DNA of 64,000 bases from a virus. Under the pieces are notes generated by a model, which saw nothing but the letters and a program-made list of their open reading frames with translations, ran no database searches and was not told the origin of the DNA. The stretch's first letter is position 1. Each line of letters starts with the position of its first letter. A program made the translations under genes and the position numbers. The DNA lies in IMG/VR virus record IMGVR_UViG_2643221642_000002, positions 1-64,000 of that record; one strand, given 5' to 3'. Shown piece after piece: positions 14,109-29,658 of this stretch.

Positions 14109-14770
14109 CAGGCGGCCGTATGGTCGAGGCGAATGATCTTCTCCGCCTGGTGTGGGGGCGCGATCCAAGCGATGTGTGCAACCCAGACTAGGCGCTGATC
14201 TTCGAGCGTCGGCGCCTGCAGCGATTGCAGGTCGTAGACGTCCTTGTTGCTGCCCTTCATCAGTCGCTTGAACACGATCTCGCCGCTCTCAAGCTGGCAG
14301 AATACCAGGCGATGAAGCATGTCCTTCGTCGGCTCAGGCAGGCGCTCGTCGTAGTAGATCAGCGATCCGTCATCGACGACGCTTCTATAGGCGTGGCCTT
14401 CGACCTTCAAGATCACGACGTCCTCGCTGGCCCCCGGCGGGATAGGGGCATACTCCCTGGCCTGGCCGGAGGTGAAAGCGACCGAGTCGTCCGGCATGGC
14501 GCCCAGCTTGCCGACGATGCGGCCCATGCGCTCGCTCGGCCCGAACATCAAAAACTCAGGCGTCGTGCGGAACTTCTTTGCGAAGACCTCGGCCTTCTTT
14601 CTAGAGAACGGACTCGTGCCGTTCTCATGCTGGATATAGGTGTTGCGGCTTAGCCCTAGGGCCTCGGCGGCGTCGGTCGCCGTCTCGTAACCGGCGCCCT
14701 CGCGGGAGGCCTTGAGCCTCGCTCCGGCCTCTCGGTTCTTCTGACGGGTTTTGGCGTCGGTCGTGGACAT
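14108..14770 (-). CDS. cI: CI-like repressor (XRE HTH + LexA-like S24 peptidase domain)
   Basis: N-terminal HTH (…ATDAAEALGLSRNTYIQHENGTS…) and C-terminal S24 autopeptidase region (…VVILKVEGHAYRSVVDDGSLIYYD…KRLMKG…). Divergent from cro with three operators in between. Confidence 0.85.
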   Translation of the reverse strand: MSTTDAKTRQKNREAGARLKASREGAGYETATDAAEALGLSRNTYIQHENGTSPFSRKKAEVFAKKFRTTPEFLMFGPSERMGRIVGKLGAMPDDSVAFTSGQAREYAPIPPGASEDVVILKVEGHAYRSVVDDGSLIYYDERLPEPTKDMLHRLVFCQLESGEIVFKRLMKGSNKDVYDLQSLQAPTLEDQRLVWVAHIAWIAPPHQAEKIIRLDHTAA

Positions 14771-14777
14771 TTCACGA
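14761..14777. promoter_or_regulatory. Operator OR3 (TCGTGGACATTTCACGA), overlapping the cI start codon
   Basis: Imperfect copy of the 17-bp operator; the spacer contains the cI ATG (14768-14770). Confidence 0.55.
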
Positions 14778-14792
14778 TTTTACCGGCGCTGA

Positions 14793-14809
14793 TCGTGAAT
14801 GGTTCACGA
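14793..14809. promoter_or_regulatory. Operator OR2 (TCGTGAATGGTTCACGA)
   Basis: Perfect half-sites; 32 bp from OR3 and 35 bp from OR1 (centre-to-centre). Confidence 0.6.
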
Positions 14810-14816
14810 TCTGGGC

Positions 14817-14844
14817 TTGACCTTTCATCGTGAAAATTTCACGA
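14817..14844 (+). promoter_or_regulatory. PR-like promoter (-35 TTGACC) with operator OR1 (TCGTGAAAATTTCACGA, 14828-14844) over the -10 region
   Basis: -35 hexamer at 14817-14822, 5 nt upstream of OR1. Same geometry as the leftward promoter (TTGACA-N5-operator). OR1 abuts the first ATG of the cro frame. Confidence 0.6.
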
Positions 14845-14852
14845 TGCTTGGC

Positions 14853-16773: not shown

Positions 16774-17415
16774 ATGGCCAACCGGAATCCGTTGCAGGTG
16801 TTCTACGACAAGGTCGTCGAACTCTTCGCTGAACGCGACGAGATCAATCAGCGGATCGCTGAGACGAAAGCCGCCGCTGCCAAGCGCGGGTTCTCGAAGA
16901 AGGTGCTCAACAACGTGCTGCGACGCGCGAAGTTGACGCCCGAACAGCGCGAGGAAGAAGACGCGCTGACCCAGATCTACGAAGGCGCCCTGGGAATGTT
17001 GGGCGGAACGCCTCTCGGCGAGGCCGCTCTGCGCCGACTTTCCGAGGAGCGCAAGCGCCGGCCGGAAGGCGGTGACGATGAAGACTCCGAGCTGCCGTTC
17101 AGCGACGACGACGAACAGGAGCCGCCCGGCGGCGCCAGCGGTGACGTCGTTGCGGACGATCCCGTCGTCGAGGACAGCCAGGATGAGGCCCGAGCGAAGG
17201 GCGCGGCCGCCGCTCAGTCCGGTCAGCCGGTCCTGGCCAACCCCTACAAGCCGCGCACCAAGCAGCGCGGGTGGTGGGACGAGGCGTGGTGCCAGGCCAG
17301 CGGCTCGGACGGCATGGACATCCCCGAGGCCTGGCGTCCGACGCCGAAGCCGAAGAAGGGCGGGCCGAAGCCCGAGGGCGAAGGTGGCGAGGGCTCGGAA
17401 GGCGGTGACGCGTGA
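16774..17415 (+). CDS. GapR-like (DUF2312) DNA-binding protein fused to an acidic linker and a C-terminal RMF-like motif
   Basis: N-terminus: LQVFYDKVVELFAERDEINQRIAETKAAAAKRGFSKKVLNNVLRRAKLTPEQREEEDALTQIYEGALGM aligns to the GapR/DUF2312 core (…IKEVYAEAKGNGFDVKAMRTIIKLRK…EEEAVLETYMAALGM). C-terminus: NPYKPRTKQRGWWDEAWCQA resembles the ribosome modulation factor signature (CPYQTLNQRSQWLGGWREA). Confidence 0.7.
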   Translation: MANRNPLQVFYDKVVELFAERDEINQRIAETKAAAAKRGFSKKVLNNVLRRAKLTPEQREEEDALTQIYEGALGMLGGTPLGEAALRRLSEERKRRPEGGDDEDSELPFSDDDEQEPPGGASGDVVADDPVVEDSQDEARAKGAAAAQSGQPVLANPYKPRTKQRGWWDEAWCQASGSDGMDIPEAWRPTPKPKKGGPKPEGEGGEGSEGGDA

Positions 17416-18353
17416 GCCGCGAAAACCGCACCATGAAGCCGACGCCGTTGAGCGACCTGCTGAAGCCCCCGTCGCTGGACGCCAAGCTTGAAGCGCTGAA
17501 GCAGTACGGCGACCTGCGGATGCCCGACGAAAGCGAGCCACCGATCCTGAACCCGCCGGTCCGCGAAGCCCTGCACCAGTTGATGCTGGAGCTTTCGACC
17601 CCGCCCGAAGAACTGGCGTTGGTTGGAGTGAAGGCACGCCTGCGCGGGATCTTCGACGGCCCGCCGGGCACCGGTAAGACGACGTTGATGCACCACATCG
17701 CCGCCCGCTTGGGTCTGCCGATGCTGGTCGTTGAGGCGGCCAATGTGGCGTCGAAATACGTCAACCAGTCGGCCGAACAGGTCGCGAAACTCTTCGCCTT
17801 GGCCCGTGAAGTCGACGTCGTGCTGTTCCTGGATGAGCTGGACGCCCTGGCGACCAATCGGTCCGACAACAGCGGCTCGGTCGGCCAAGAGGGCAACAAG
17901 GTCGTCATCGCCCTGCTGCAAATGCTGGACCGGCACGACGGGATGGTGTTCGCCGCGACCAATCGGCGCGATATCATCGACCCGGCCATTTGGCGGCGCT
18001 TCCAGGTCCAGATGACCGTGGACCTGCCTGAGCCCGAGCAGCGCTTCGCGATCGTGAAGCGCTACAGCAAGCCGCTCGACATCGACGACGAGACGATCGG
18101 CCGGATCTCGGCGGTGCTCGAGGGCGCGTCACCCGCGCTGATCAAGAACGTCATGGAGAGCGTCCGCCGCGACCAGATCATCGGTCCGAAGCTGAAGCAG
18201 GACATGTCGATCGTCGCGGTGTTTCGCCGGATTGCCGCCTCGTCGGCGCCGGCGGACGAGGGCGACCAGCCCCCGCTCTGGGCCCGGCCAGAGTCCGCTC
18301 TGGCTTATCTGGCCGACGCGCCCTGGCCGCCCGCTCTGCCGAAGGCCGCCTGA
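17412..18353 (+). CDS. AAA+ ATPase
   Basis: Walker A GPPGTGKTT, Walker B VVLFLDELDA, sensor-1 AATNR; GTGA overlap with the upstream stop. Confidence 0.75.
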   Translation: MSRENRTMKPTPLSDLLKPPSLDAKLEALKQYGDLRMPDESEPPILNPPVREALHQLMLELSTPPEELALVGVKARLRGIFDGPPGTGKTTLMHHIAARLGLPMLVVEAANVASKYVNQSAEQVAKLFALAREVDVVLFLDELDALATNRSDNSGSVGQEGNKVVIALLQMLDRHDGMVFAATNRRDIIDPAIWRRFQVQMTVDLPEPEQRFAIVKRYSKPLDIDDETIGRISAVLEGASPALIKNVMESVRRDQIIGPKLKQDMSIVAVFRRIAASSAPADEGDQPPLWARPESALAYLADAPWPPALPKAA

Positions 18354-18796
18354 TGCGCGTGCCGGCGTCCCATCCCCTGGCGCAGCAGGCGCTGGCTCAG
18401 CTGCGGGGCGGTCCCAAGGATCGCCGCGGCGACCGCGCGTTCGCGCTGATCGCGGGGGAGAAGACGCCGGCGCCCAAGCGCAAGAACAAGTACGGCGCGG
18501 TCCGGACCAAGTTCGACGGCATCTGGTTCGACTCCGCGCACGAGGCCCGGCGCTGGGGCGTCCTGAAGCTGATGGTGCGCGCCGGCGAGATCGACCAGCT
18601 GGAGCGCCAGGTGGTTTTCGAGCTGGGCGGTGACCCGCTGATCACCTATCGCGCCGACTTCCGCTACCGCGTGATCGCCACCGGCGCGGTGGTCGTCGAG
18701 GACGCCAAGTCCGAGGCCACGGCCCGCGAGAAATCCTACCGGCTGAAGAAGAGCCTGATGGCCAGCATCCACAACATCAAGATCAAGGAGGTCTGA
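18353..18796 (+). CDS. DUF1064 family phage protein
   Basis: …NKYGAVRTKFDGIWFDSAHEARRWGVLKLMVRAGEIDQLERQVVFEL…YRADFRYRV…VVEDAKS…YRLKKSLM matches the DUF1064 pattern. Confidence 0.65.
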   Translation: MRVPASHPLAQQALAQLRGGPKDRRGDRAFALIAGEKTPAPKRKNKYGAVRTKFDGIWFDSAHEARRWGVLKLMVRAGEIDQLERQVVFELGGDPLITYRADFRYRVIATGAVVVEDAKSEATAREKSYRLKKSLMASIHNIKIKEV

Positions 18797-18797
18797 C

Positions 18798-19493
18798 GTG
18801 GCCGGTTTCCCGTGGACCGACGAAAACAAGCTTCTGGCCGCCGACTGGTTCGTCAAGGATGAGCTGTCGTGCTCGCAGATCGCCAGGAAGCTGTCCGAAA
18901 AATACAAGCATTCTGTCACGCGCAACGCCGTGATCGGCATGCTGTCGCGTAGGGGCATCACGACCGATAGCCGCGCGGCCAAGCCCGAGAAGCCCCGGAC
19001 CTTCAGCCGATCGGTACCTGTCGCGCCTCGGCCGCCGCCGGCCCAGGCCAGTCTCGGCCCCAAGACCTATCCGGGCGGCCCCCGCGCGGTGCTGACGCCC
19101 GAAGCGGCGGCGCCTGACGTCGTTCCCATCGGCAAGCCACCCCTGCCCATGCCGCCGCCAGAACTGGTCGTGGTCGGCCAGGCGGTGCTGCTGGTGGACT
19201 TCGTGCGTGGCGATGACGGAGTCCTGGTCGATCGCGGCCTGAAGGCCTCGTGCTGCAAGTACCCGGTCGGCCCGACTCCGCCGATCGGCGAGATGCACCT
19301 GCAGCTTTTCTGCGCCGCGGGCACCGGCGACCCGATGCGGCCGTATTGCGACTGCCACGAGCGCGTCGCCTGGAAGCCGTCGAACCCCGCCAGCAAGGCC
19401 AAGGTCATCAAGGCGGCCATCGGCGCCGCACACCGCGACATGGTGGCCCGGAACCGCGTGCGCGGCCCGAACAGCTCGCGCGCCGTGATCTAG
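18798..19493 (+). CDS. GcrA-like cell-cycle regulator family protein
   Basis: N-terminus WTDENKLLAADWFVKDELSCSQIARKL…SVTRNAVIGMLSRRG, and C-terminal Cys/His module CCKYPVGPTPPIGEMHLQLFCAAGTGDPMRPYCDCHERVAWKP, as in GcrA (PF07750). Confidence 0.75.
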   Translation: MAGFPWTDENKLLAADWFVKDELSCSQIARKLSEKYKHSVTRNAVIGMLSRRGITTDSRAAKPEKPRTFSRSVPVAPRPPPAQASLGPKTYPGGPRAVLTPEAAAPDVVPIGKPPLPMPPPELVVVGQAVLLVDFVRGDDGVLVDRGLKASCCKYPVGPTPPIGEMHLQLFCAAGTGDPMRPYCDCHERVAWKPSNPASKAKVIKAAIGAAHRDMVARNRVRGPNSSRAVI

Positions 19494-19508
19494 GCGATGG
19501 AGGGGGCG

Positions 19509-19793
19509 ATGACCGAGACCACCAAGAAAATCTCCTGGTTGATCCCGACGGAAGCGGCTCGGGCCCTGGCCATGTCGCCGGGGATCGAAGCGATCGTCGC
19601 CCTCGAGCTGCGCCGCCGCGCGACCTTCCGTCCGCACGCCGAGCTGTCGCTGAACGAGACCGGGTTCTCGGCCGACCTCCAGTACGACGATCCGGCCTAT
19701 CCCGGCCAGGTGCTGCACCTGGCGGTCCAGCTGTCGGCCGTGCCGAAAGAGAACGCCTTCATGCAGCCCCGCATGGAAGGGGTGCGGACGTGA
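19509..19793 (+). CDS. Hypothetical protein
   Basis: 94 aa from the second ATG (GGAGG SD 5 nt upstream). Confidence 0.45.
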   Translation: MTETTKKISWLIPTEAARALAMSPGIEAIVALELRRRATFRPHAELSLNETGFSADLQYDDPAYPGQVLHLAVQLSAVPKENAFMQPRMEGVRT

Positions 19794-20005
19794 TCGGATC
19801 GACAGCAGAGCAAGCCGGCTACATCGCCGCCGCCGCCGTAGACAAGGCGTCTCAGAAGTTCGGGGTCGAGGTGGCGAAATCGCTCGCGATCGCGTTCTTG
19901 TGCGCCTGGGCGGTCGCATTGAAGCGCCTGCTCGGCCCGAAAGCCGCGAGCGAGATTGTCTACCAGGTCGCCGACCAGGTGGCGGCGCCGGAGGAAGACG
20001 TTTGA
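19790..20005 (+). CDS. Hypothetical small protein (GTG start)
   Basis: 71 aa; GTGA overlap upstream and TTGA overlap downstream. Confidence 0.35.
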   Translation: MIGSTAEQAGYIAAAAVDKASQKFGVEVAKSLAIAFLCAWAVALKRLLGPKAASEIVYQVADQVAAPEEDV

Positions 20006-21117
20006 CCGTCTCCATCCTCGTCGGCGACTGCCTGGCCCAGCTGCGCGCCCTACCCAGCAACAGCGTTCACACCTGCATCTGCAGCCCGCCGTATTTCCGG
20101 CTGCGCGACTACGACGTCAAAGGCCAGATCGGGCTGGAGAGGACGCCGGCCGCCTACATCAAGAAGCTGGTCGCGGTGTTCCGCGAAGTCCGCCGGGTCC
20201 TGCGCAAGGACGGCACGCTGTGGGTCAACATCGGCGACAGCTACGTCTCGGTCGGCGGAACAGCGGGCCGCCAAACCGGACAGAAGTTCGCCGATCGGCG
20301 TCGCGGCAAGGAAGACATCTGCAAGGGGGCGCGGATCAAGACTGCATCGCGGAAAGGCGCGGGGTTGAAGCCCAAGGATTTGATCGGCATCCCGTGGATG
20401 CTGGCTTTCGCACTGCGTGAGGATGGATGGTTCCTGCGCCAAGACATCATCTGGAACAAGCCGAACCCCATGCCCGAGAGCGTGGAGGATCGCTGCACCA
20501 AGTCGCACGAGTACATTTTCCTGCTGAGCAAGTCTCGCCGGTACTACTTCGACGCGGGTGCGATCGCTGAACCGATCACGACCGATCCGAAGGAGCGCTA
20601 CGAACAGCGCGCGAGGGTGACCGGTCGGGGAGAACAGGCAGCCGCGGCAGCCCGGGGTCAGGATCGGGACAAGTCAGGTGGCTTTCCGCCAAGGCGCCGC
20701 TCAGGAAACCTGGCAAGGAAACCCGGTGCCGCACGTGGTTGTCCGGACGGAACTGGGGCCAATGTCTGCGGCTCTATTCCTTGGGAGGGGTCTGAGCGGA
20801 ACAAGCGTTCGGTGTGGACCGTGGCTTCAAAGCCTCTGAAGGTCGCGCACTTCGCGGCCTATCCGCCTGAGTTGATCACCCCATGCGTGTTGGCGGGAAG
20901 TCCACGGGGGGGGGTAGTACTCGACCCGTTCGGCGGGGCCGGCACGACAGCGCTGGTCGCCGAACGGCTGGGGCGCGACTCCATCCTGATCGAACTCAAT
21001 CCCGACTACGCGGCCATGGCCCAGCGTCGTCTGAAGAACGAGCTGGCGATGGTGTCTGGGGCGGACGACCGGCGCGGCCTCGAGCCGCTGCCGTTGTTCG
21101 ACGGGGCTGCCGCATGA
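20002..21117 (+). CDS. Beta-class DNA methyltransferase (N6-adenine or N4-cytosine; SPPY motif)
   Basis: N-terminal motif IV …VHTCICSPPYF…; C-terminal motif I VLDPFGGAGTTALVA. This is the beta-class (CcrM/HinfI-type) motif order. S-P-P-Y is the variant usually seen in N4-cytosine enzymes. TTG start with a GGAGGA SD. Confidence 0.75.
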   Translation: MTVSILVGDCLAQLRALPSNSVHTCICSPPYFRLRDYDVKGQIGLERTPAAYIKKLVAVFREVRRVLRKDGTLWVNIGDSYVSVGGTAGRQTGQKFADRRRGKEDICKGARIKTASRKGAGLKPKDLIGIPWMLAFALREDGWFLRQDIIWNKPNPMPESVEDRCTKSHEYIFLLSKSRRYYFDAGAIAEPITTDPKERYEQRARVTGRGEQAAAAARGQDRDKSGGFPPRRRSGNLARKPGAARGCPDGTGANVCGSIPWEGSERNKRSVWTVASKPLKVAHFAAYPPELITPCVLAGSPRGGVVLDPFGGAGTTALVAERLGRDSILIELNPDYAAMAQRRLKNELAMVSGADDRRGLEPLPLFDGAAA

Positions 21118-21635
21118 CGGTCCAGCCCTTCCTGATCGGCGAAGGCTGGATGGAGATGAAAGATGGCGACGCATCGTGCCGCGCCATCTTCGACCGCCAC
21201 TACAGCCGCTACGTCTATGCAGACGGCCGCCGACCGAAGCTGATCGTTGGCCCTGGCGAGAAGCTGGTTCTGATGACCGCCGACGGTGGGGCTCTGTGTG
21301 CCTGGCGCAAGTTCATCAACGACGCCGGTCAGGAAGGGGTGAATTGCGCCATCTTCCGGCGAGAGGGCGGCGACGTCGCCTCCGCGATGCTGACCTCGGC
21401 GATGGACCTGGCCTGGGATCGCTGGCCGGGCGAGCGGTTCTACACCTATGTCGATCCACGCGGCGTCGCGCCTACGATCAGAGCCTCGCGCCCGACATGG
21501 GGCCACTGCTTCTACCAGGCAGGCTGGCGGTTTGCCGGCTTGACCAAAAAGCGCCTGCACATCCTGGAAGTCCCCACGGCCGAAACTCGCGCTGCCGAGG
21601 CCGCTGCAGAAAAAGCGCAGCGGGAGGCCGCATGA
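21114..21635 (+). CDS. Hypothetical protein co-transcribed with the methyltransferase
   Basis: 173-aa ORF; ATGA overlaps on both sides. Confidence 0.5.
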   Translation: MTVQPFLIGEGWMEMKDGDASCRAIFDRHYSRYVYADGRRPKLIVGPGEKLVLMTADGGALCAWRKFINDAGQEGVNCAIFRREGGDVASAMLTSAMDLAWDRWPGERFYTYVDPRGVAPTIRASRPTWGHCFYQAGWRFAGLTKKRLHILEVPTAETRAAEAAAEKAQREAA

Positions 21636-23236
21636 GCCGCTTCGACGACCACTTTATCGACGAGCTGAAGGCCCGGCTGCGGCCCTCGGACGTGATCGGC
21701 AAGACGGTGAAGCTGCGCCGCGCCGGGCGCGAGTATTCCGGTCTGTCGCCCTTCACCAAGGAGAAGAGCCCGTCGTTCTTCGTCAACGACGAGAAGGGCT
21801 TCTACCACTGCTTCTCCAGCGGCAAGCACGGCGACATCATCGAGTTTCTGGTCGAGACCGAGCGCCTGTCGTTCCCGGAGGCGGTCGAGCGCCTGGCCGC
21901 CGAGGCGGGCATGGCCTTGCCGGCGGCCGACCCGCAAGCGGCCGAGATGGACCGGCGCCGCGCGAGCCTGACCGACTGGCTGGATCTGGCCACCACCTGG
22001 TTCGAGGCGCAGTTGCGCCGGCCGGTGGGGCAGGGCGCCCGAGCCTATCTCGAGGGGCGCGGCCTGCCCGAGAGCGAGTGGTCGCGCTTCAAGATCGGCT
22101 ATGCCCCGGAAGGCCGCACGGCCCTGAAGGACTATCTGGTCGCCAAGGGCGCTCGCCCGGGCGAGCTGGTCGCCGCGGGGATCCTGGTCGACGAGGAGAA
22201 CGGCACGGCGCCGTTCGACCGCTTCCGCGACCGGATCATCTTCCCGATCACCGATGCGCGCGGGAAGATCATCTCGTTCGGCGGCCGGGCCCTGAACCCG
22301 TCGGCGAAGGCCAAGTACCTGAACGGGCCGGAGACGGTGCTGTTCGACAAGGGTCGCACGCTCTACGGCCTGTTCGAGGCCCGGCGGATTCAACACGCCG
22401 GCGGCGTCGACGCCGACCTAGCGGTGGTCGAGGGCTATATGGATGTGATCGCCTGCCAGCGGGCGGGGATCGCGGCCGTCGCGCCGATGGGCACGGCGCT
22501 GACCGAGGGCCAGATGCTGGCGCTGTGGCGCTTCCATCACGAGCCGACCCTGTGCTTCGACGGCGACGCCGCCGGCCAGCGCGCCGCCTGGCGCGCGATC
22601 GAACGGGCGCTGCCGCTCCTGGAGCCGCGGCGGACGTTCAAGTTCACCCTGCCCGTGGGCGGCAAGGACCCCGACGATGTGCTGCGCGAGCAGGGCGTGG
22701 CCGCGCTTGTCGCCCAACTTCGCCAGACGCGGCCGCTGGTCGAGCTGCTGTTCGAACACGAGCGCGCCGTCGACGCCTTGGCGACGCCGGAGCAGCGCGC
22801 CGGCCTGCGCGGGCGCCTTCGCCTCGCCGCGCGGACCATCCAGCACGCGGACCTCTCCAGCGCCTACATGCGCGACCTGATGGGCCGCTATGACGCCCAG
22901 TTCCAGGATCTGCGCCGGGGCCAAGGCCCGCGCGGGCGTTGGGCGGCGCCGAAGGCCGGCGCCACGCCCGAGCTGAAGGTCGCCGCGTCCACCCTGGCGA
23001 GCGGTCGGCCGACCATCGACACGATCCTGGCCAAGTCCGAGGTCTCGCCGGCGGAGTCGGCGCTGTTCGACCTGCTGACCGAGCAGGAAGACGTCGATCG
23101 CCGCATCGCTGACGCCCGCGCGCGCCTGGCCGAGCCCGGCGCGCTGGACGAGCTGGTGGCGCTGAAGGCCGAGCGCGGGCGCGTGGCCGAGGCCGTGAAG
23201 GCCGCGAGATTTCAAGATCAGGGAGCAGCCGCATGA
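21632..23236 (+). CDS. dnaG: DNA primase DnaG-like
   Basis: N-terminal CHC2-type zinc-finger region (…SPFTKEKSPSFFVNDEKGFYHCFSSGKHGDIIEF…) followed by a TOPRIM core (…VVEGYMDVIA…FDGDAAGQRAA…). The zinc-finger ligands look partly substituted. Confidence 0.8.
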   Translation: MSRFDDHFIDELKARLRPSDVIGKTVKLRRAGREYSGLSPFTKEKSPSFFVNDEKGFYHCFSSGKHGDIIEFLVETERLSFPEAVERLAAEAGMALPAADPQAAEMDRRRASLTDWLDLATTWFEAQLRRPVGQGARAYLEGRGLPESEWSRFKIGYAPEGRTALKDYLVAKGARPGELVAAGILVDEENGTAPFDRFRDRIIFPITDARGKIISFGGRALNPSAKAKYLNGPETVLFDKGRTLYGLFEARRIQHAGGVDADLAVVEGYMDVIACQRAGIAAVAPMGTALTEGQMLALWRFHHEPTLCFDGDAAGQRAAWRAIERALPLLEPRRTFKFTLPVGGKDPDDVLREQGVAALVAQLRQTRPLVELLFEHERAVDALATPEQRAGLRGRLRLAARTIQHADLSSAYMRDLMGRYDAQFQDLRRGQGPRGRWAAPKAGATPELKVAASTLASGRPTIDTILAKSEVSPAESALFDLLTEQEDVDRRIADARARLAEPGALDELVALKAERGRVAEAVKAARFQDQGAAA

Positions 23237-23901
23237 TCTTCTCGGATGCGGAAGAACGCGTGCGCGCCGCGACGGTAGCCATGCTGCGGGCCGAGTTCCC
23301 AGCCGCCAGGATCATTCACGAGCTGGAGATCGGCGGCGCCAGGCTGGATGTCGCCGCGATCGACCACGACCGGATCGTGGTCTGCGAGATCAAGTCCGAG
23401 AAGGACAGCCTGAAGCGGCTGGCGCATCAGTCAAAATTCGCGCTGTCGGTCAGCGACGACTACCGCGTGATCTGTACGTCGAAGCACGTCGACCAGATCC
23501 TGGGCTTCCGCGAAATCTACGTGACGGTCGATGGGCGCCAAGTCGTCAACAAGAACTTCAATGAGCACTTGCGCGCTGCGACGGTCTGGCTTGAGAGCGG
23601 CGGCCAGCTCCAGAAGGTGAGCAAACCGCTGAAGTGGTACGGCCGCCGCCGCATCCTGGCCGAGTCCGTCCTGAGCCTGATGCACGTCCATGAGGTGAAG
23701 GCGGCGTTGCGGCATCTGGGCGCCAAGTCGCGCTGGACCGGCTCCGACCTTTGCACCTTCGCGATGGAGCACATGTCGGGTGGCGATATTCGGCGCCTGG
23801 TCTGCGCCAGCCTCCGCGCCCGCCGGTTCGCGCGCGCTGACGACCCCTTCACCATCGGAGAAGTGTCGATGAGTTTCAGTACTGCCGTCGTCCATGGCTG
23901 A
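23233..23901 (+). CDS. MmcB-like PD-(D/E)XK nuclease family protein
   Basis: …RIIHELEIGGARLDVAAIDHDRIVVCEIKSEKDS… matches the E…D…E-I-K core of MmcB/DUF1052. Confidence 0.55.
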   Translation: MIFSDAEERVRAATVAMLRAEFPAARIIHELEIGGARLDVAAIDHDRIVVCEIKSEKDSLKRLAHQSKFALSVSDDYRVICTSKHVDQILGFREIYVTVDGRQVVNKNFNEHLRAATVWLESGGQLQKVSKPLKWYGRRRILAESVLSLMHVHEVKAALRHLGAKSRWTGSDLCTFAMEHMSGGDIRRLVCASLRARRFARADDPFTIGEVSMSFSTAVVHG

Positions 23902-25348
23902 CGGCTCGCAATCCTTCCCCGCGGCGGTCCTGCCGCACAACGTCCAGACCGAGATGGCCCTGGTGGGCATGCTGCTGGCCGACAACCAGGCGGTCGAGCG
24001 GATCGACTGGCTGACGCCCGCAGCATTCCACGACCCGTTCCTGGAGCGCCTGTTCACCCGCGTGGTCACGACGATCCGCAAGGGTGAACTGGTCGAGCCC
24101 CGCCTGGCCCACGACTGGCTGGTCGGCGATCCCGCGTACGAGGAGCTGGGCGGCCTGGCCTATCTGGCCCAGCTGGTCGAGTTCGCCCCGCCGGCGTCGA
24201 TGGTGGTCAGCTATGCCCGTCAGTTGCGCACCCTGCTGCGCCGCCGGGAGATGATCCGGATCGGCAACGAGATGGTGCTGGCCGCTGGCCAGGCGATCGA
24301 CGAGGACGAGGTCGACGGGGAGCTGGAGCGGGCCCAGCAGGGGCTCTACAACCTCGCCGAACACGGCGACGTGCGCGGCGGCTACGTGGCCTTTGGCGAC
24401 GCTCTGCGCGGCGCTGTCGAGATGGTGGCCAAGGCCTACGGCAGCGCCGGCGGGGTGGTGGGCGTTTCGACCGGGCTGTCGGACATCGACCAGAAGCTGG
24501 GCGGCATGCACCCGTCCGACCTGATCGTCCTGGCCGGCCGCCCGTCGATGGGCAAGACGGCCCTGGCCACCAACATCGCGTTCAACGTCGCCAAGCGCTA
24601 CGCCTACGAGGTGCAGCCGGACGGCTCGCGCAAGACTATCCAGGGCGGCGTGGTCGCCTTCTACTCCCTGGAAATGAGCGCCGAGCAGCTGGCCCTGCGG
24701 ATGCTGGCCGACGCGTCCGGCGTTTCGGGTGATCGCCTCCGGAAGGGTGAGATCAACGCCAGCGAGTTCGGGCGGGTCCGCGACGCGGCCATGGAGATCC
24801 AGGAAGCGCCGCTCTACATCGACGCGACCGGCGGCCTTTCCATCGCGAAGCTGTGCGCCCGGGCGCGCCGGCTCAAGCGCCAGGTCGGCCTGGACCTCGT
24901 CGTGGTCGACTACCTGCAGCTGGTCACGGGAACGGACCTGGGCCCCAACAGCAATCGGGTGCAGGAAGTCAGCCAGATCACCATGGCCTTGAAGGCGCTG
25001 GCCAAGGAACTTGGCTGCCCGGTGATCGCGCTTTCGCAACTGTCGCGGATGGTCGAGCAGCGCGCCGACAAGCGGCCGATGCTGTCGGACCTGCGGGAGT
25101 CGGGGTCGATCGAGCAGGACGCCGACATCGTCGCGTTCGTCTACCGCGAGGCCTACTACGCCGAACGCACCGAGCCGCGCGAGGGCACCCCTGAACACCT
25201 CGAGTGGCAGCGGCTGATGGAGGAGGTGATCGGCCTTGCCGAGGTGATCATCGCCAAGCAACGGCACGGTCCGATCGGCACCGTCAAGCTGGCCTTCGAC
25301 GCCGACACGACGAAGTTCTCAGACATTCAGAACAGACGCCACCAGTAG
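23894..25348 (+). CDS. dnaB: Replicative DNA helicase DnaB
   Basis: Walker A GRPSMGKTA, Walker B LDLVVVDYLQL, and a RecA-like C-terminal domain (…LSQLSR…SDLRESGSIEQDADIV…). Confidence 0.9.
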   Translation: MADGSQSFPAAVLPHNVQTEMALVGMLLADNQAVERIDWLTPAAFHDPFLERLFTRVVTTIRKGELVEPRLAHDWLVGDPAYEELGGLAYLAQLVEFAPPASMVVSYARQLRTLLRRREMIRIGNEMVLAAGQAIDEDEVDGELERAQQGLYNLAEHGDVRGGYVAFGDALRGAVEMVAKAYGSAGGVVGVSTGLSDIDQKLGGMHPSDLIVLAGRPSMGKTALATNIAFNVAKRYAYEVQPDGSRKTIQGGVVAFYSLEMSAEQLALRMLADASGVSGDRLRKGEINASEFGRVRDAAMEIQEAPLYIDATGGLSIAKLCARARRLKRQVGLDLVVVDYLQLVTGTDLGPNSNRVQEVSQITMALKALAKELGCPVIALSQLSRMVEQRADKRPMLSDLRESGSIEQDADIVAFVYREAYYAERTEPREGTPEHLEWQRLMEEVIGLAEVIIAKQRHGPIGTVKLAFDADTTKFSDIQNRRHQ

Positions 25349-25358
25349 CGGGATCACG

Positions 25359-26549
25359 ATGACGCACGCCCAATTGCCCGACCCGCTTACCTCGACCGAC
25401 TGCGATCTGCGCGGCCTGCCGTACATGCCGTTTGAGGTGCAGAACATCCTGATCTCCGACCTGGTCCTGCTCTCGACCGGAGACGAGTTCAAGGCCGCCA
25501 TGCTGCTGCGCGCGGCCTCGTGGAGCCGGATCCCGGCCGCATCCCTTCCGGACGAGCCGCGCGCCTTGGCCAAGCTGGCCGGCGTCGACTTCTGCGATTG
25601 GGAGAAGGTCAAGGATCGCGCCCTTCATGGCTGGGTCAAATGCTCGGACGGGTTCCTCTACCACCCGGACGTCGCGGATCGGGCGATGAACGCCCTGCCG
25701 GATCATCAGGTCTTCCAGGAAAAGCGGTCGGGCGACGCGGCCCGCAAACGGCGCGAGCGCGACGATCGCCGGCGCCTGTTCGAAGAAGCTTCGGGTCTGA
25801 ACCTGTCGGTCGCCTTCAACACCAAGACGAGCGACCTGCGCCGGTTGGTGGCGGACGCCATGGTCACGCGTGACCAGCGTGACAAGTCACGCGTGACAAG
25901 TCACGGCGAACAACGTGACCAAGACCGTGACCGTCCCCATGACATGTCACGATCTGAAGCTGTGACGGGTCACGAAAAAGTCACGGCTAGAAAGGGAAAG
26001 GGAAAAGAAGATTCCCCCCAACCCCCCACGGGGGGCGATCGTGACAGGTTCGACGAGGCATGGTCGGTCTTGCACGACAAATCCCGTGGTCCGGCGGACA
26101 TGGGCATGGCGCGGACCTTGTGGCGGGAGTTCATCGCTAGCGGCGAGATCGACGCCGACGGGCTGTTCGCGGCGACGAAAGCGGTCTCCGACGTCGTCTT
26201 CGCCTCGGGCGGTAAGCAGCCGATGAAGGCCTTCCACCGTTGGCTCAAGCTGCGCGAATGGCAGAACTGGGCGCCGACGGGCGGGCAGCCGAAGAGCCAC
26301 TGGACGGGGCCGGATCACATCCGTGACGCGATCATCGCCCAGGTCGCCAAGACCCGCTGCAGCCGCAAGGAAGGCGAGGCCTTCGCCGCCAGCTGGCTCG
26401 ACAGCGTGACGACGTGGAGCGACGTGCCTGCGGCGATCGTCTGCCTGGCCACAACGGTCGAGAAGAAGCTGCGGACCACGGTCGGCAAGATGCTGGTCGA
26501 CGAGTTCGGCGTGCAGGTGATCGTCAAGGCCGCCGGGGAGGCCGCCTGA
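25359..26549 (+). CDS. DUF1376-domain replication initiation protein (lambda-O-like role)
   Basis: N-terminal DUF1376 signature (LPYMPFEVQNILISDLVLLSTGDEFKAAMLLRAASWSR…). The central low-complexity linker is encoded by iteron-like DNA. Confidence 0.65.
   Translation: MTHAQLPDPLTSTDCDLRGLPYMPFEVQNILISDLVLLSTGDEFKAAMLLRAASWSRIPAASLPDEPRALAKLAGVDFCDWEKVKDRALHGWVKCSDGFLYHPDVADRAMNALPDHQVFQEKRSGDAARKRRERDDRRRLFEEASGLNLSVAFNTKTSDLRRLVADAMVTRDQRDKSRVTSHGEQRDQDRDRPHDMSRSEAVTGHEKVTARKGKGKEDSPQPPTGGDRDRFDEAWSVLHDKSRGPADMGMARTLWREFIASGEIDADGLFAATKAVSDVVFASGGKQPMKAFHRWLKLREWQNWAPTGGQPKSHWTGPDHIRDAIIAQVAKTRCSRKEGEAFAASWLDSVTTWSDVPAAIVCLATTVEKKLRTTVGKMLVDEFGVQVIVKAAGEAA
25862..26050. repeat. Iteron-like palindromic repeats + A-rich/C-rich tract (candidate origin of replication)
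   Basis: GGTCACGCGTGACC (25862-25875); tandem GCGTGACAAGTCAC ×2 (25877-25904); further GTGAC/GTCAC half-sites to ~25990; then aaagggaaagggaaaagaag and ccccccaaccccccacgggggg. Confidence 0.55.
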
Positions 26550-26734
26550 TGGGTTGGTTCGAGTTGATCATCGGCCTCCACGTCATCGTGCTTGCTGTTG
26601 GCGCTGCGTTTTTGGCGCGTCGAATGCGGCGAGCGAAGCGTCTTGATCGTGCCCTTTTCGAGATTCGGCGCGACGAGATGAAGCGTCGGAACGCTGAGCT
26701 GTTCGCGCGCTACGACCGGAAGGTGGGCCGCTGA
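26549..26734 (+). CDS. Small membrane protein
   Basis: 61 aa with an N-terminal TM segment (WFELIIGLHVIVLAVGAAFLA); TGATG coupling. Confidence 0.45.
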   Translation: MGWFELIIGLHVIVLAVGAAFLARRMRRAKRLDRALFEIRRDEMKRRNAELFARYDRKVGR

Positions 26735-28206: not shown

Positions 28207-28874
28207 CGGCGCGCGGGGTCACGGTGGCGGAGTTCGCGGACCGCTGTCGCGTCGTGCACCCCTCCCAGCAGCTGGGCAAGACCGAGTTGGCCCGCTGGGA
28301 GGCGCGGGCCGCGCCTTGGGCGCGGGACATCCTGGCGACGGTAATGGCTCCCGATGTCACGCACCTTCGGACCAAGCGTCTCGGGGACGGCGACGATCGC
28401 CGAGGATGGTACCAACGGGCCTTCGGAGAGCCGTTCAGCGACGAGGACATCACCATCGTCAAGCCGTCCTGCTGTGGCTTGACCGAGATCATGATGAGCC
28501 GAGCGCTGGAGGCCTACGACAGGCTCAACAGGTTCAGGGCGGCCAAGCACTGGTGGCGCATTGACGATCACGCGCTCGACGCCGGCCCGATGGTGATCGG
28601 CGTCGACTGGGCTGCCGACCGTGTCGAGTGGGACGTCGCGGACTGGGGAAGCGACAGCTGGCGGACATGCAATCCCGCGCCGACGATCGACCTGACACCG
28701 CCAGCCCGCATGACGAGGCGAGACCTTCTCGCCACTTCGGCGAACGTCGATATCAACAAAGTCAAATCTGTTAGATCGACAAAACCCGTGAATCAGGTGA
28801 TTCGGTCACTAGTGGTGCAGAAACGCGCGCCGCTCCCAAACATCGTCCGGAAGCGAGGCCATGGCCCCGCGTAA
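28203..28874 (+). CDS. Hypothetical protein
   Basis: 223-aa ORF with GGAGG SD and ATGA coupling. Its last ~45 codons run through an atypically AT-rich stretch and overlap terS by 14 nt. Confidence 0.45.
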   Translation: MTARGVTVAEFADRCRVVHPSQQLGKTELARWEARAAPWARDILATVMAPDVTHLRTKRLGDGDDRRGWYQRAFGEPFSDEDITIVKPSCCGLTEIMMSRALEAYDRLNRFRAAKHWWRIDDHALDAGPMVIGVDWAADRVEWDVADWGSDSWRTCNPAPTIDLTPPARMTRRDLLATSANVDINKVKSVRSTKPVNQVIRSLVVQKRAPLPNIVRKRGHGPA

Positions 28875-29658
28875 GACGACGAAGTCTTCTCGTAAATCCA
28901 GGGCCACACCGCTTCGGCGCGCCGACGACGTCACGTGGGTGACGGCCGCCGAGTACGCGCGCCGCGTCGGCATCACCAAGCCTCGGATGAGCGAATTCTT
29001 CAACAAGGGCATGCCGTTCGAGAACGGCAAGGATCCCGAGGGGCGCCGCGACTCCAAACTGGTGAACATCCACGAGGCTGATGCCTGGCGGATGGCCAAC
29101 ACCGAGGTGCGGGTTGCATCTGACGGAAGTCTACGCGGGCTGAACATGGCGGGAGGCGCGGAGCCGCCCGCCGGTTTGTCCCACGCTGGGAACGATCGGG
29201 GCGAGGGCGTCACTCCGGTCGATCCCAAGGCGGCGGTTCCCGACCCTCCCCCGGGGCCGCCGCCAACCCCATCGACATCGGCCCCGCCCGCGGCTTCCAC
29301 GCCGCCGGACTTGAGCCCCCAGCAGTTGGCCATGGCGCGGATCGCCGAGGCCAAGGCCGCGGGGGTCGAGGCGGACACCCGATGGAAGCAACAGCGCCTG
29401 GCCGCCGCCCAAGGCCTTCTGGTCGACCGCGAGGCCGCCGTCGGCGCCCATCGTGCCTTTGTCCAGAAGGTCGGCTCGTCGATCGACCGCATGCCCGCCA
29501 ACTTCGCCGGCGTCGTCGCCGCACGCCTGGGGGTCGCGGAGCACGAGGTGTTCCTGGCCCTGGATGAAATCGTCGCCGTGCAGATGAGAGAAGACCTTGC
29601 CAGCGACGCCCGCAGCCACGCCGCCGCCGCTGCCCAGCGGCGAGGGGGAAAACGATAA
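28861..29658 (+). CDS. terS: Terminase small subunit
   Basis: N-terminal HTH (VTAAEYARRVGITKPRMSEFFNKGMP) and position immediately upstream of the large terminase. Confidence 0.65.
   Translation: MAPRKTTKSSRKSRATPLRRADDVTWVTAAEYARRVGITKPRMSEFFNKGMPFENGKDPEGRRDSKLVNIHEADAWRMANTEVRVASDGSLRGLNMAGGAEPPAGLSHAGNDRGEGVTPVDPKAAVPDPPPGPPPTPSTSAPPAASTPPDLSPQQLAMARIAEAKAAGVEADTRWKQQRLAAAQGLLVDREAAVGAHRAFVQKVGSSIDRMPANFAGVVAARLGVAEHEVFLALDEIVAVQMREDLASDARSHAAAAAQRRGGKR

What the first reader, a model, noticed from the sequence alone, without database searches (positions are those of the whole stretch)
18798..21117. GcrA-like regulator adjacent to a beta-class (SPPY) DNA methyltransferase: a phage copy of the host methylation-dependent cell-cycle transcription circuit
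In Caulobacter, GcrA is a sigma-70 cofactor that recognises CcrM-methylated GANTC sites. Here a GcrA-family protein (conserved N-terminal HTH-like WTDE…SQIA…RNAVIGML and C-terminal Cys/His module) lies in the same operon as a beta-class methyltransferase whose motif order (IV then I) matches the CcrM/HinfI type. Its motif IV is S-P-P-Y, the variant typical of N4-cytosine enzymes, so the methyl mark may differ from host CcrM. Together with the GapR-like gene, this looks like a three-part host-takeover module (nucleoid protein, methylation reader, methylation writer) rather than simple anti-restriction.
Basis: partly seen in the sequence, partly recalled or inferred. Interest (0 to 1): 0.7.

Follow-up and report, generated by a model that had tools for sequence, protein, structure and literature searches.

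The report
Prophage GcrA copy beside unrelated methylase

Summary
The genes are real. A GcrA-family gene (18798-19493) and a beta-class SPPY DNA methyltransferase (true start 20002, not 19900; end 21117) lie two small ORFs apart in the repressor-controlled early/replication operon of a lambda-like prophage of Caulobacter sp. Root343.

The GcrA-like protein keeps both GcrA domains, the m6A-pocket residues and the CCCH zinc site. The methyltransferase core is 51-53% identical to two characterised m4C CCCGGG enzymes (phiAH14a_p05, M.Pac25I). It belongs to a very large family found in many phyla, has lower GC3 than its neighbours, and is absent from 3 of 6 syntenic relatives. It ends in PLPLF, close to the Caulobacter MutS beta-clamp motif DLPLF.

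New result: the only perfect GcrA consensus TGATTCG in the 64 kb (7.8 expected) lies 57 nt upstream of the first packaging gene. In five related phages all 7 perfect boxes (142.8 kb) fall in this 121-nt element, whether or not the methyltransferase is present, and the element contains no CCCGGG.

All functions are inferred.

The parts
14761..14845 (.). Three palindromic operator-like sites (ATCGTGAA-N3-TTCACGAT) between the repressor-like gene (14108-14770, -) and a cro-like ORF (14853-15137, +). They place the rightward operon under immunity control.
   Evidence: the repeat finder; sequence; HTH_31 hit
16774..17415 (+). GapR-like gene. It has an N-terminal GapR DNA-binding domain (residues 5-74) and a ~140-aa extension. 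It is the first recognisable gene of the accessory cluster.
   Evidence: PF10073 E=1e-9, above cut-off. NCBIfam GapR equivalog scores 27.7 against a cut-off of 140, not met. Syntenic in L003, L004, L122 and L125.
17412..18353 (+). AAA ATPase gene
   Evidence: PF00004 E=9.7e-29; phrog_3757
18353..18796 (+). DUF1064 gene, in a PHROG family annotated as Holliday-junction resolvase. It lies immediately upstream of the GcrA-like gene in every relative and in phage DMCA.
   Evidence: PF06356 E=2.2e-10; phrog_190 E=8.7e-28; synteny
18798..19493 (+). GcrA-family gene, 231 aa. The DNA-binding domain is residues 4-55 (nt 18807-18962) with recognition helix VTRNAVIGMLSRRG (nt 18915-18956). A Pro-rich linker follows. 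The sigma-70-interaction-type CCCH module is C153, C172, C184, H187 (nt 19254-19358). There is a conserved basic C-terminal tail.
   Evidence: PF07750 E=3.4e-16; PDB 7ye1_G E=5e-9 over both domains; 52 invariant columns among 9 homologues; AlphaFold residues 1-55 with pLDDT above 90 and three helices
19509..19793 (+). Conserved small ORF (94 aa), function unknown
   Evidence: Called in L002. Homologous position in L003, L004, L122, L124 and L125. No family hit.
19790..20005 (+). Conserved small ORF (71 aa), function unknown
   Evidence: no family hit
20002..21117 (+). Beta-class orphan DNA methyltransferase, 371 aa. Motif IV SPPY is at nt 20083-20094 and motif I DPFGGAGTT at nt 20923-20949. 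A ~75-aa variable insert lies between the two halves.
   Evidence: PF01555 E=7.5e-48. 53% identity to phiAH14a_p05 and 51% to M.Pac25I, both m4C CCCGGG enzymes (PMC4936722). GC3 is 0.79 against 0.87-0.94 for neighbours.
21085..21099 (+). C-terminal peptide P-L-P-L-F of the methyltransferase, a candidate beta-sliding-clamp-binding motif
   Evidence: C. crescentus MutS clamp motif is 849-DLPLF-853 (PMC8034640). 94 of 120 homologues carry a comparable C-tail motif. The unrelated DMCA methyltransferase ends in DDLPLFGGEAA.
21114..21635 (+). 173-aa gene of unknown function (phrog_24928). It accompanies the methyltransferase only in this phage and has the same lowered GC3.
   Evidence: phrog_24928 E=6.9e-21; GC3 0.79; absent in L122, where the methyltransferase gene is followed directly by DnaG
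21632..26549 (+). Replication genes of the same operon: DnaG primase, a 222-aa ORF, DnaB helicase and a replication protein
   Evidence: Pfam DnaG domains; DnaB by translation and by Pfam in relatives; phrog_22470
28753..28824 (+). Conserved low-GC regulatory element just upstream of the first packaging gene. It contains a 35-nt block (28753-28787), a second GANTC box TGAATCA (28789-28795), and the window's only perfect GcrA consensus TGATTCG (28798-28804). It is a candidate GcrA/CcrM-dependent late promoter; the alternative is a cos/terminase site.
   Evidence: One of two low-GC islands inside the rightward operon. Five-phage alignment A4. All 7 perfect boxes in 142.8 kb lie in this element. 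1 observed against 7.76 +/- 2.74 expected in the window. No CCCGGG in the element.
28861..29658 (+). Probable small terminase, assigned by position only. It overlaps the start of the gpA-type large terminase gene and is the first gene of the late operon.
   Evidence: No family hit. Conserved upstream of TerL in L122-L125. TerL Pfam hits.

Best explanation
Two separate functions sit side by side in the repressor-controlled early/replication operon of a lambda-like Caulobacter prophage.

(1) The GcrA-like protein works like host GcrA.
- Its C-terminal CCCH zinc module docks on region 2 of the host primary sigma factor.
- Its N-terminal three-helix domain reads m6A-methylated GANTC. It prefers TGATTCG, a mark written by the host's CcrM and not by any phage enzyme.
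- Made early after induction, it activates the late (packaging/structural) operon. It would do so through a conserved element 57-110 nt upstream of the first packaging gene, which carries the genome's only perfect GcrA box plus a second GANTC box.
- It may also boost host S-phase genes.

(2) The SPPY methyltransferase is an optional, horizontally moving orphan enzyme of the M.Pac25I/phiAH14a_p05 family.
- It most likely makes N4-methylcytosine, probably at CCCGGG.
- It is probably brought to the replication fork by a C-terminal beta-clamp-binding peptide (PLPLF).
- Its job is to methylate newly replicated phage DNA for protection against restriction. It is not a signal for the GcrA-like protein.

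Shown here: family membership, residue conservation, synteny, presence/absence of the methyltransferase, and the box distribution.
Inferred: sigma-70 binding, m6A reading, promoter activity, methyltransferase specificity, and clamp binding.
For: Reader:
- The Pfam GcrA hit and a full-length alignment to C. crescentus GcrA support family membership.
- Pocket and base-contact residues R33, N34, I37, G38 and R42 of Cc GcrA (PMC5887438) are conserved as R42, N43, I46, G47 and R51.
- The zinc ligands C/C/C/H are conserved.
- The DNA-binding domain is confidently predicted as three helices.
- 52 invariant columns among homologues of 42-50% identity indicate purifying selection.

Target element:
- TGATTCG is the GcrA consensus. 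GcrA-regulon promoters carry sites near -20 or between +2 and +30, and PmipZ has two (PMC4647560).
- The window has one TGATTCG against 7.76 expected, at 28798 in a low-GC island upstream of the TerS-like gene.
- In five related phages all 7 perfect boxes in 142.8 kb lie in the same 121-nt element.
- The central GANTC column is kept while its N base and its orientation change. A second box is always present at one of two positions.

Methyltransferase independence:
- The core is 51-53% identical to two characterised m4C CCCGGG enzymes.
- 118 of the 120 best homologues have SPPY, and the family spans several phyla.
- The methyltransferase is present in the window, L004 and L122 but absent in L003, L124 and L125, which all keep the DUF1064-GcrA pair (with AAA in all but L004, and GapR wherever the contig reaches it).
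- GC3 is 0.79 against 0.87-0.94 for the neighbours.
- No CCCGGG lies in the element, and none of 9 CCCGGG sites in L122 is intergenic.
- The boxes are conserved in phages that lack the methyltransferase.
- The window has no DPPY or CcrM-like enzyme.

Lytic timing:
- Three operators between the repressor-like and cro-like genes sit at the head of the operon.
- phiAH14a virion DNA, but not lysogen DNA, is SmaI-resistant.

Clamp motif:
- The methyltransferase ends in PLPLF; Cc MutS uses DLPLF.
Against: - No experiment bears on this protein.
- Two DNA-contact residues differ (K39 to M, H41 to S), and a 5-residue insert lengthens the turn before the recognition helix. Specificity could therefore differ.
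- Of the eight sigma-70-contact residues that matter in two-hybrid tests, three are identical and two conservative.
- Relatives L004 and L122 have S at the N34 position yet L122 keeps the boxes.
- The element lies exactly where lambda-like phages keep cos. Its repeated boxes could be small-terminase binding sites.
- No sigma-70-type promoter was detected by the simple scan. My -35/-10 assignment is by eye. If TTGAC is the -35, the invariant box overlaps the -10 region, where GcrA sites are rare in Caulobacter.
- GANTC sites as a whole are not enriched in intergenic DNA.
- Methyltransferase specificity is inferred from about 52% identity only.
- Across IMG/VR, methyltransferase genes do cluster next to GcrA-like genes, which leaves room for some functional link.
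Confidence: 0.55

Rival explanations
1. One reading: a self-contained phage reader-writer pair. The adjacent SPPY methyltransferase writes the mark (m4C or other) that the phage GcrA-like protein reads to redirect sigma-70 RNA polymerase. With the GapR-like gene this would form a three-part takeover module.
For: - The genes lie in one operon about 500 nt apart.
- In IMG/VR contigs with GcrA-like genes, methyltransferase genes lie within 3 kb 15 times and further away once, over similar amounts of flank (p=4e-4).
- Caulobacter phage DMCA has the same order, DUF1064-GcrA-2 ORFs-beta-class methyltransferase.
- The phage DNA-binding domain has an insert and two changed contact residues, so its specificity is not proven.
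Against: - The methyltransferase is absent from 3 of 6 syntenic relatives that keep the GcrA-like gene and the boxes.
- The neighbouring methyltransferases in other phages belong to unrelated classes: SPPY, SPPF, DPPY and Dam-like NPPY/NPPF.
- The m6A-pocket residues are conserved.
- N or S at position 34 does not track methyltransferase presence.
- The closest characterised relatives make m4C at CCCGGG, and no CCCGGG lies in the conserved element or in L122 intergenic DNA.
- GapR-like and DUF1064 genes cluster in the same neighbourhood, so the clustering may simply reflect the replication module.
Confidence: 0.05
2. The GcrA-like protein acts only on the host, and the conserved element is the cos/terminase recognition site. 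It would either supply GcrA activity in G1/swarmer cells to switch on host replication genes, as proposed for phiCbK gp222, or act as a competitor that titrates sigma-70 or displaces host GcrA.
For: - The literature hypothesis for phage GcrA homologues is host manipulation (PMC3556154; PMC6630229).
- The element lies directly upstream of the small/large terminase genes, where lambda-like phages carry cos. Its boxes are short repeats, as TerS sites are.
- No promoter was detected by the scan.
- Phage DMCA encodes a GcrA-like protein but has no TGATTCG anywhere.
Against: - The repeats match the top-ranked GcrA heptamer exactly, in either orientation, in phages that all encode a GcrA homologue.
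- The heptamer is otherwise absent from 142.8 kb and is depleted about 8-fold in the window.
- The maintained GANTC with a free N base, and a second box at two alternative positions that fit the -20 and +2..+30 zones, are what a CcrM/GcrA site would show.
Confidence: 0.25
3. The methyltransferase is an epigenetic regulator of the lysogen, changing host gene expression, rather than a protective enzyme of the lytic cycle.
For: Orphan methyltransferases can regulate genes. The authors of PMC4936722 raise this possibility for phiAH14a_p05.
Against: - The gene lies deep in the repressor-controlled rightward replication operon.
- In phiAH14a the lysogen chromosome is SmaI-sensitive while virion DNA is fully protected.
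- A C-terminal clamp-type motif points to replication-coupled action.
Confidence: 0.05

Closest known systems
Caulobacter crescentus GcrA (sigma-70 cofactor) with CcrM (GANTC m6A methyltransferase)
   Same: - Two-domain architecture: N-terminal three-helix DNA-binding domain, Pro-rich linker, C-terminal CCCH zinc module and basic tail.
- Pocket residues R, N, I, G and base-contact R are conserved.
- A candidate target carries TGATTCG boxes like PmipZ.
   Different: - About 30% identity, far below the NCBIfam equivalog cut-off (49 against 280 bits).
- A 5-residue insert before the recognition helix.
- K39 is M and H41 is S.
- Zinc-ligand spacing is C-X18-C-X11-C-X2-H instead of C-X14-C-X9-C-X2-H.
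- An extra conserved tail, AAHRDM..RN..R.
- Encoded by a prophage, and the writer is not copied.
GcrA homologues of phages (phiCbK gp222 and relatives; Agrobacterium phage Atu_ph08 gp5; Caulobacter phages Senya/Shash and DMCA)
   Same: A phage-borne PF07750 protein in an alphaproteobacterial phage. DMCA shares the DUF1064-GcrA-2 ORFs-methyltransferase order and the YK-type insert.
   Different: - Those are annotations with a host-takeover hypothesis and no proposed phage cis target.
- Here a temperate lambda-like lineage shows conserved perfect GcrA boxes ahead of its late operon.
- DMCA has 27% identity, S at N34 and no TGATTCG.
M.Pac25I (pRA2) and phiAH14a_p05, m4C methyltransferases specific for CCCGGG
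   Same: Beta-class order, SPPY, and 51-53% identity over both catalytic halves. phiAH14a_p05 is likewise a prophage orphan enzyme with the variable insert and a clamp-type C-terminal motif (QMDVF).
   Different: Specificity is not measured here. M.Pac25I sits next to an XcyI-family endonuclease and lacks both the insert and the C-terminal motif. The window enzyme has no endonuclease partner.
Sinorhizobium phage phiLM21 methyltransferase with CcrM-like specificity
   Same: An alphaproteobacterial temperate phage engaging with the host CcrM/GANTC system.
   Different: phiLM21 copies the writer.
Phage late-gene activators that act through host sigma-70 or the replisome (T4 MotA/AsiA, Mu C with the beta clamp, lambda Q)
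   Same: An early-expressed phage factor proposed to turn on the late operon through the host RNA polymerase.
   Different: The mechanism would be a sigma region 2 cofactor that reads a host DNA methyl mark. This has not been described for any phage late switch in the literature searched.
Clamp-tethered DNA-metabolism proteins (C. crescentus MutS DLPLF; eukaryotic DNMT1-PCNA, from general knowledge)
   Same: A short C-terminal peptide, PLPLF, matching the MutS motif.
   Different: No bacterial or phage DNA methyltransferase with a clamp-binding motif turned up in two literature searches. Binding is untested.

Membership tests
GcrA family (PF07750) | Profile match above the curated threshold, covering both domains | tested here: met
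   60.4 bits against a cut-off of 26.9, residues 6-199 of 231. Alignment to PDB 7ye1_G residues 2-160, E=5e-9.
GcrA family (PF07750) | N-terminal three-helix DNA-binding domain with m6A-pocket residues R33, N34, I37, G38 and base contact R42 | tested here: met
   R42, N43, I46, G47 and R51 align to them (residue roles from PMC5887438). AlphaFold gives helices 8-19, 25-36 and 42-51 with pLDDT above 90.
GcrA family (PF07750) | Backbone and base contacts K39 and H41, and the short turn before the recognition helix | tested here: not met
   M48 and S50 replace them, and a 5-residue insert (EKYKH) precedes the helix. Other subfamily members keep K.
GcrA family (PF07750) | C-terminal CCCH zinc module | tested here: met
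   C153, C172, C184 and H187 are invariant in 9 homologues and align to C118, C133, C143 and H146. The spacing is longer.
GcrA family (PF07750) | Sigma-70 region 2 contact residues (K119, W120, D124, G129, F130, F132, Y142, Y151) | tested here: inconclusive
   K, F132 and Y142 are identical. W to Y and Y to W are conservative. D124, G129 and F130 are not conserved, or the alignment there is ambiguous. The module was modelled at low confidence.
GcrA family (PF07750) | Binds sigma-70 and prefers methylated GANTC | not testable with these tools
   Needs biochemistry.
Orthologue of host cell-cycle GcrA (NCBIfam NF050816 equivalog) | Score at or above the equivalog cut-off | tested here: not met
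   49.1 bits against a cut-off of 280.
Beta-class N4-cytosine methyltransferases of the M.Pac25I/CCCGGG group | Motif IV before motif I, with motif IV reading SPPY | tested here: met
   SPPY at residues 28-31 and DPFGGAGTT at 308-316. 118 of the 120 closest homologues have SPPY.
Beta-class N4-cytosine methyltransferases of the M.Pac25I/CCCGGG group | Close homology to experimentally characterised members | tested here: met
   53% identity to phiAH14a_p05, E=8e-124. 51% to the pRA2 enzyme next to an XcyI-family endonuclease. Enzyme characterisation is reported in PMC4936722.
Beta-class N4-cytosine methyltransferases of the M.Pac25I/CCCGGG group | Produces m4C at CCCGGG | not testable with these tools
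   22 CCCGGG sites in the window against 28.6 +/- 5.4 expected, so neither avoided nor enriched.
Restriction-modification system | Cognate endonuclease next to the methyltransferase | tested here: not met
   The neighbours are a 71-aa ORF and a 173-aa phrog_24928 protein, followed by DnaG. In L122 the methyltransferase gene is followed directly by DnaG.
CcrM (NCBIfam NF050803 equivalog) | Equivalog score and DPPY motif IV | tested here: not met
   94.6 bits against a cut-off of 830. Motif IV is SPPY, not DPPY.
GapR (PF10073 / NF052541) | GapR DNA-binding domain; equivalog score | tested here: inconclusive
   The domain is met (38.3 bits against 22.6). The equivalog is not met (27.7 against 140). 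The protein is 213 aa with a long extra C-terminal region.
Beta-clamp-binding proteins | Clamp-binding peptide near a terminus | tested here: inconclusive
   PLPLF lies 5 residues from the C-terminus, compared with Cc MutS 849-DLPLF-853. The motif class is conserved in 94 of 120 homologues within an otherwise variable tail. Binding is untested.

The most novel reading that the evidence does not exclude
A temperate phage uses a self-encoded GcrA-type sigma-70 cofactor to read the HOST's CcrM m6A mark at two perfect GcrA boxes in front of its late operon. Late gene expression would then be gated by the methylation state of phage DNA, and so by its replication history and the host cell-cycle stage. 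The reasoning is that CcrM is made only late in the host cycle, so replicating phage DNA would lose the mark. This would be an epigenetic early-to-late switch borrowed from the host cell cycle. Alongside it, the phage's own methyltransferase would be tethered to the sliding clamp for a separate, protective m4C mark.
Probability: 0.3. Interest if true: 0.65.

Novelty: new variant of a known kind. Interest (0 to 1): 0.5.

Why it matters
Phage-borne GcrA homologues have been noted since 2012. In the literature searched they have no demonstrated function and no proposed phage target. This lineage offers a concrete, cheap test in a model genus. It has one small gene, one 121-nt element with two GANTC boxes, and a host whose CcrM and GcrA can be depleted.

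If confirmed, it would be the first phage late switch that works through a sigma region 2 cofactor reading a host DNA methyl mark.

The analysis guards against a tempting over-reading. A methyltransferase next to a methyl-reader is not necessarily its partner. Here it is an optional cassette of a different chemistry.

The clamp-type C-terminal peptide on this large family of mobile orphan methyltransferases, if real, would give a simple mechanism for replication-coupled self-protection of phage DNA.

Tried and rejected
- tblastn of the GcrA-like protein against 50,697 phage records found nothing at E<=1e-5. At E<=1 there was a single weak hit, phage DMCA.
- Subfamily-specific peptide patterns found no relatives in IMG/VR or in the GTDB species representatives.
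- Foldseek of the AlphaFold model against the PDB gave only generic helix-turn-helix hits with E>0.1. The C-terminal module was modelled poorly (mean pLDDT 56), so the fold comparison says nothing.
- GANTC enrichment in intergenic DNA was tested and not found. At most 7 of 75 sites are intergenic against 8.9% intergenic DNA. Two of the apparent gaps turned out to be small genes, at 26550-26735 and 31576-31791.
- The E. coli-type promoter scan found no site in 14-32 kb. It is poorly suited to Caulobacter promoters.
- A search for XcyI-family (CCCGGG) endonucleases found 25 loci, none in Caulobacter. Only close relatives are detectable, so there is no evidence either way for a host restriction threat.
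- An exact 26-nt core of the conserved element was not found in IMG/VR or in JGI metagenomes.
- Phage DMCA has no TGATTCG. The 80 IMG/VR loci show depletion of the box (22 against 59.5 expected) and no excess of clustered boxes. The box-upstream-of-late-genes pattern therefore cannot be generalised beyond this lineage with the flanks available.
- The small DPPY methyltransferases next to other phage GcrA-like genes belong to a very broad family. Their specificity (GANTC or not) could not be inferred.
- Rejected: that the ~75-aa variable insert of the methyltransferase sets specificity. M.Pac25I lacks it yet shares CCCGGG with phiAH14a_p05, which has it.

Full report
**What is at the coordinates**

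- The window is 64-71% G+C.
- Position-specific GC analysis and an independent gene call on an identical public contig (Logan ERR1104087_73) give a compact + strand operon.
- Gene order:
  - GapR-like, 16774-17415
  - AAA ATPase, 17412-18353
  - DUF1064, 18353-18796
  - GcrA-like, 18798-19493
  - two small ORFs, 19509-19793 and 19790-20005
  - methyltransferase, 20002-21117
  - a 173-aa ORF, 21114-21635
  - DnaG, 21632-23236
  - a 222-aa ORF
  - DnaB, 23894-25348
  - a replication protein, 25359-26549
- Neighbouring genes overlap by a few bases or are at most 18 nt apart. No + strand terminator-like site occurs before 26588.
- Family assignments:
  - GcrA PF07750, E=3.4e-16
  - N6_N4_Mtase PF01555, E=7.5e-48
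  - GapR_DNA-bd PF10073, E=1e-9
  - DUF1064, AAA, DnaG
- The surroundings make this a lambda-like prophage:
  - tyrosine integrase at the left edge
  - an 809-aa C5-methylase fusion and an HTH repressor-like gene on the - strand
  - gpA-type large terminase and lambda-family portal downstream
  - three palindromic operators between the repressor-like and cro-like genes
- Exact protein matches name the host as Caulobacter sp. Root343.
The methyltransferase starts at ATG 20002 rather than 19900. Two conserved small ORFs separate it from the GcrA-like gene.

**The GcrA-like protein**

- It aligns to C. crescentus GcrA over both domains (PDB 7ye1, E=5e-9).
- I used the structural work on GcrA (PMC5887438) to map residues.
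  - The residues that form the two methyl pockets and read GANTC (R33, N34, I37, G38, R42) are conserved as R42, N43, I46, G47 and R51.
  - The four zinc ligands are conserved as C153, C172, C184 and H187, with longer spacing.
- Differences from the host protein:
  - K39 is M and H41 is S.
  - A 5-residue insert precedes the recognition helix.
  - Only three of eight critical sigma-70 contacts are identical, with two more conservative.
  - A conserved extra C-terminal tail is present.
- AlphaFold predicts the N-terminal domain confidently as three helices but not the zinc module. The fold search was uninformative.
- The NCBIfam equivalog score is far below cut-off. This is a family member, not an orthologue of the host regulator.
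- The subfamily is rare: 9 homologues in 5.8 billion proteins at E<=1e-5. It is under clear constraint, with 52 invariant columns.

**The methyltransferase**

- It is beta-class with SPPY.
- Its best phage hits are about 53% identical. They include Pseudomonas phage phiAH14a gene p05.
  - That enzyme was shown experimentally to protect CCCGGG against SmaI as an m4C enzyme.
  - It modifies virion DNA but not the lysogen chromosome (PMC4936722).
- The pRA2 enzyme M.Pac25I is 51% identical over both catalytic halves. It sits next to an XcyI-family endonuclease and lacks the ~75-aa variable insert. The insert therefore does not set specificity.
- The family is very large (more than 8000 members at E<=1e-40) and spread over several phyla. 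118 of the 120 best hits have SPPY.
- The window holds no DPPY or CcrM-like enzyme.
The enzyme is most likely an m4C enzyme, plausibly CCCGGG-specific.

- Six syntenic relatives were recovered: the window, L003/L123, L004, L122, L124 and L125.
- All keep DUF1064-GcrA-small ORFs, with the AAA ATPase in all but L004, and with GapR wherever the contig reaches that far.
- The methyltransferase is present in three: the window, L004 (70% identity) and L122 (67%).
- It is absent in three. In those relatives the small ORFs are followed directly by DnaG or DnaB.
- The methyltransferase and its 173-aa neighbour have GC3 of 0.79, against 0.87-0.94 for their neighbours.
- The pocket residue N34 is N or S irrespective of methyltransferase presence.
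- These facts argue for an optional cassette.
- Against too quick a dismissal, I scanned IMG/VR with a back-translated V[ST]RNAVIGK pattern.
  - This yielded 67 distinct viral GcrA-like genes.
  - Methyltransferase genes lie within 3 kb of them 15 times and beyond 3 kb once, over similar flank lengths (p=4e-4).
  - Caulobacter phage DMCA shows DUF1064-GcrA-2 ORFs-methyltransferase with a DPPY enzyme.
- Those neighbouring enzymes belong to unrelated classes: SPPY, SPPF, DPPY and Dam-like. GapR-like and DUF1064 genes cluster in the same place. The association is best read as a shared slot in the replication module.

- Inside the long rightward operon there are only two low-GC islands.
  - One lies within the replication-protein gene and looks like an origin.
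  - The other, 28723-28816, lies immediately upstream of the first packaging gene (28861).
- The second island contains two GANTC sites. One of them is TGATTCG, which is the GcrA consensus and the site used in the crystal structure (PMC4647560; PMC5887438).
- It is the only TGATTCG in the 64 kb, where dinucleotide shuffles give 7.76 +/- 2.74.
- In L122 the same place is intergenic. A 35-nt block plus GGTGATTCG is identical there, while the upstream DNA is unalignable.
- Across five phages:
  - The central GANTC column is invariant while its N base changes.
  - The heptamer is TGATTCG in three phages and the same heptamer on the other strand in two.
  - Every phage has a second box, either 9 nt upstream or 21 nt downstream.
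- All 7 perfect boxes in 142.8 kb of these phages lie in this 121-nt element.
- The element contains no CCCGGG.
- The boxes are kept in the relatives that lack the methyltransferase.
- Promoter reading, by eye only:
  - If the conserved TTGAC(G/C) is a -35 element with the Caulobacter spacing, the invariant box overlaps the -10 region.
  - The second box then falls near -20 or near +10, the two zones reported for GcrA-regulon promoters.
- The alternative is that the element is cos and the boxes bind the small terminase.

**Mechanism proposed**

- After induction the rightward operon makes the GcrA-like protein.
- Bound to host sigma-70, it recognises the CcrM-methylated boxes and opens the late promoter.
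CcrM is broadly conserved in Alphaproteobacteria.
- The methyltransferase acts separately on replicating phage DNA.
- Its C-terminus..EPLPLFDGAAA, resembles the C. crescentus MutS clamp-binding motif DLPLF. That motif is needed for replisome localisation (PMC8034640).
- Comparable C-tail motifs occur widely:
  - D-A-G/P-M/L-F in many homologues.
  - QMDVF or QLDLL in Pseudomonas relatives.
  - DDLPLF in the unrelated DMCA enzyme.
  - In total, 94 of 120 homologues have such a motif.
  - The R-M-linked M.Pac25I does not.
- Two literature searches found no report of clamp-binding bacterial or phage DNA methyltransferases.

**Comparison with what is known, and verdict**

- Phage GcrA homologues are known from phiCbK, Atu_ph08, Senya/Shash and a brucellaphage. 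They are interpreted as host cell-cycle manipulation.
- Phage GapR has been reported.
- Phage CcrM-like writers (phiLM21) and phage m4C CCCGGG enzymes are known.
- The genes themselves are therefore new members of known kinds.
- New here:
  - A conserved pair of perfect GcrA boxes lies ahead of the late operon.
  - The methyltransferase carries a clamp-type tail.
- All functional steps remain inferred. The decisive experiments are simple.

Noticed in passing
window 21085-21099; also L001:2986-4050, L007:9489-10823, L122:10001-11080, P0010-P0129: Most members of this large orphan methyltransferase family end in a short conserved peptide in an otherwise variable tail. Forms seen are PLPLF, DAG(M/L)F, DAPLF, GPLF and QMDVF/QLDLL. 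It resembles beta-clamp-binding motifs, including C. crescentus MutS DLPLF. The R-M-linked M.Pac25I lacks it. Several unrelated phage beta-class methyltransferases next to GcrA-like genes end in Q-x-x-(L/M)-F (QPDLF, QPRLF, QPDMF, QSELF).
   Followed up: partly
window 14761-14845: Three palindromic operator-like sites (ATCGTGAA-N3-TTCACGAT) are spaced 32-35 nt apart between the repressor-like gene and a cro-like ORF. This is a textbook tripartite immunity region.
   Followed up: partly
window 25963-26035: A low-GC island with G-runs and T-rich tracts (GGGGGGAATCTTCTTTTCCCTTTCCC) lies inside the replication-protein gene. It resembles an origin embedded in the initiator gene, as in lambda O.
   Followed up: no
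window 9877-12306 (-) and 9191-9880 (-); L003, L004, L122: An 809-aa protein carries only a partial C5-cytosine methylase match (residues 53-233). It is conserved in all relatives, next to a 229-aa ORF and an Rv2179c-like exonuclease gene. It is a second, different methyltransferase in the leftward operon.
   Followed up: no
P0006, P0009 (homologues of window 18798-19493): Two members of the GcrA-like subfamily carry a duplicated N-terminal GcrA DNA-binding domain, that is, two recognition helices in tandem.
   Followed up: no
whole window; L008-L087: GANTC is depleted in the window (75 against 107 +/- 9). The GcrA heptamer TGATTCG is depleted both in the window (1 against 7.8) and in 790 kb of viral contigs that encode GcrA-like proteins (22 against 59.5 +/- 8.2).
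   Followed up: partly
window 16774-17415; L004:8933-9553: The GapR-like protein is 213 aa, with a long C-terminal extension that gives a weak sub-threshold RMF-like match (residues 134-172). The L004 counterpart carries an FtsK_gamma domain instead.
   Followed up: no
window 26550-26735 and 31576-31791: Two apparent intergenic gaps are small genes. One encodes a 61-aa protein with a hydrophobic N-terminus. The other encodes a 71-aa protein in the position of lambda gpW, between the large terminase and the portal.
   Followed up: partly
window 28861-29658 (P0130): The public annotation of the TerS-like gene starts 26 codons downstream (239 aa). Homologues of 261-266 aa align from the upstream ATG at 28861. 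The ORF 28203-28874 overlapping the conserved element is probably over-extended at its 3' end, because its tail is not conserved in L122.
   Followed up: partly
L124:533-1171 and L125:3611-4249 versus window 18798-19493: At the same syntenic slot, some relatives carry a GcrA-like gene with a canonical host-type DNA-binding domain and no 5-residue insert. Others carry the insert-bearing type.
   Followed up: no
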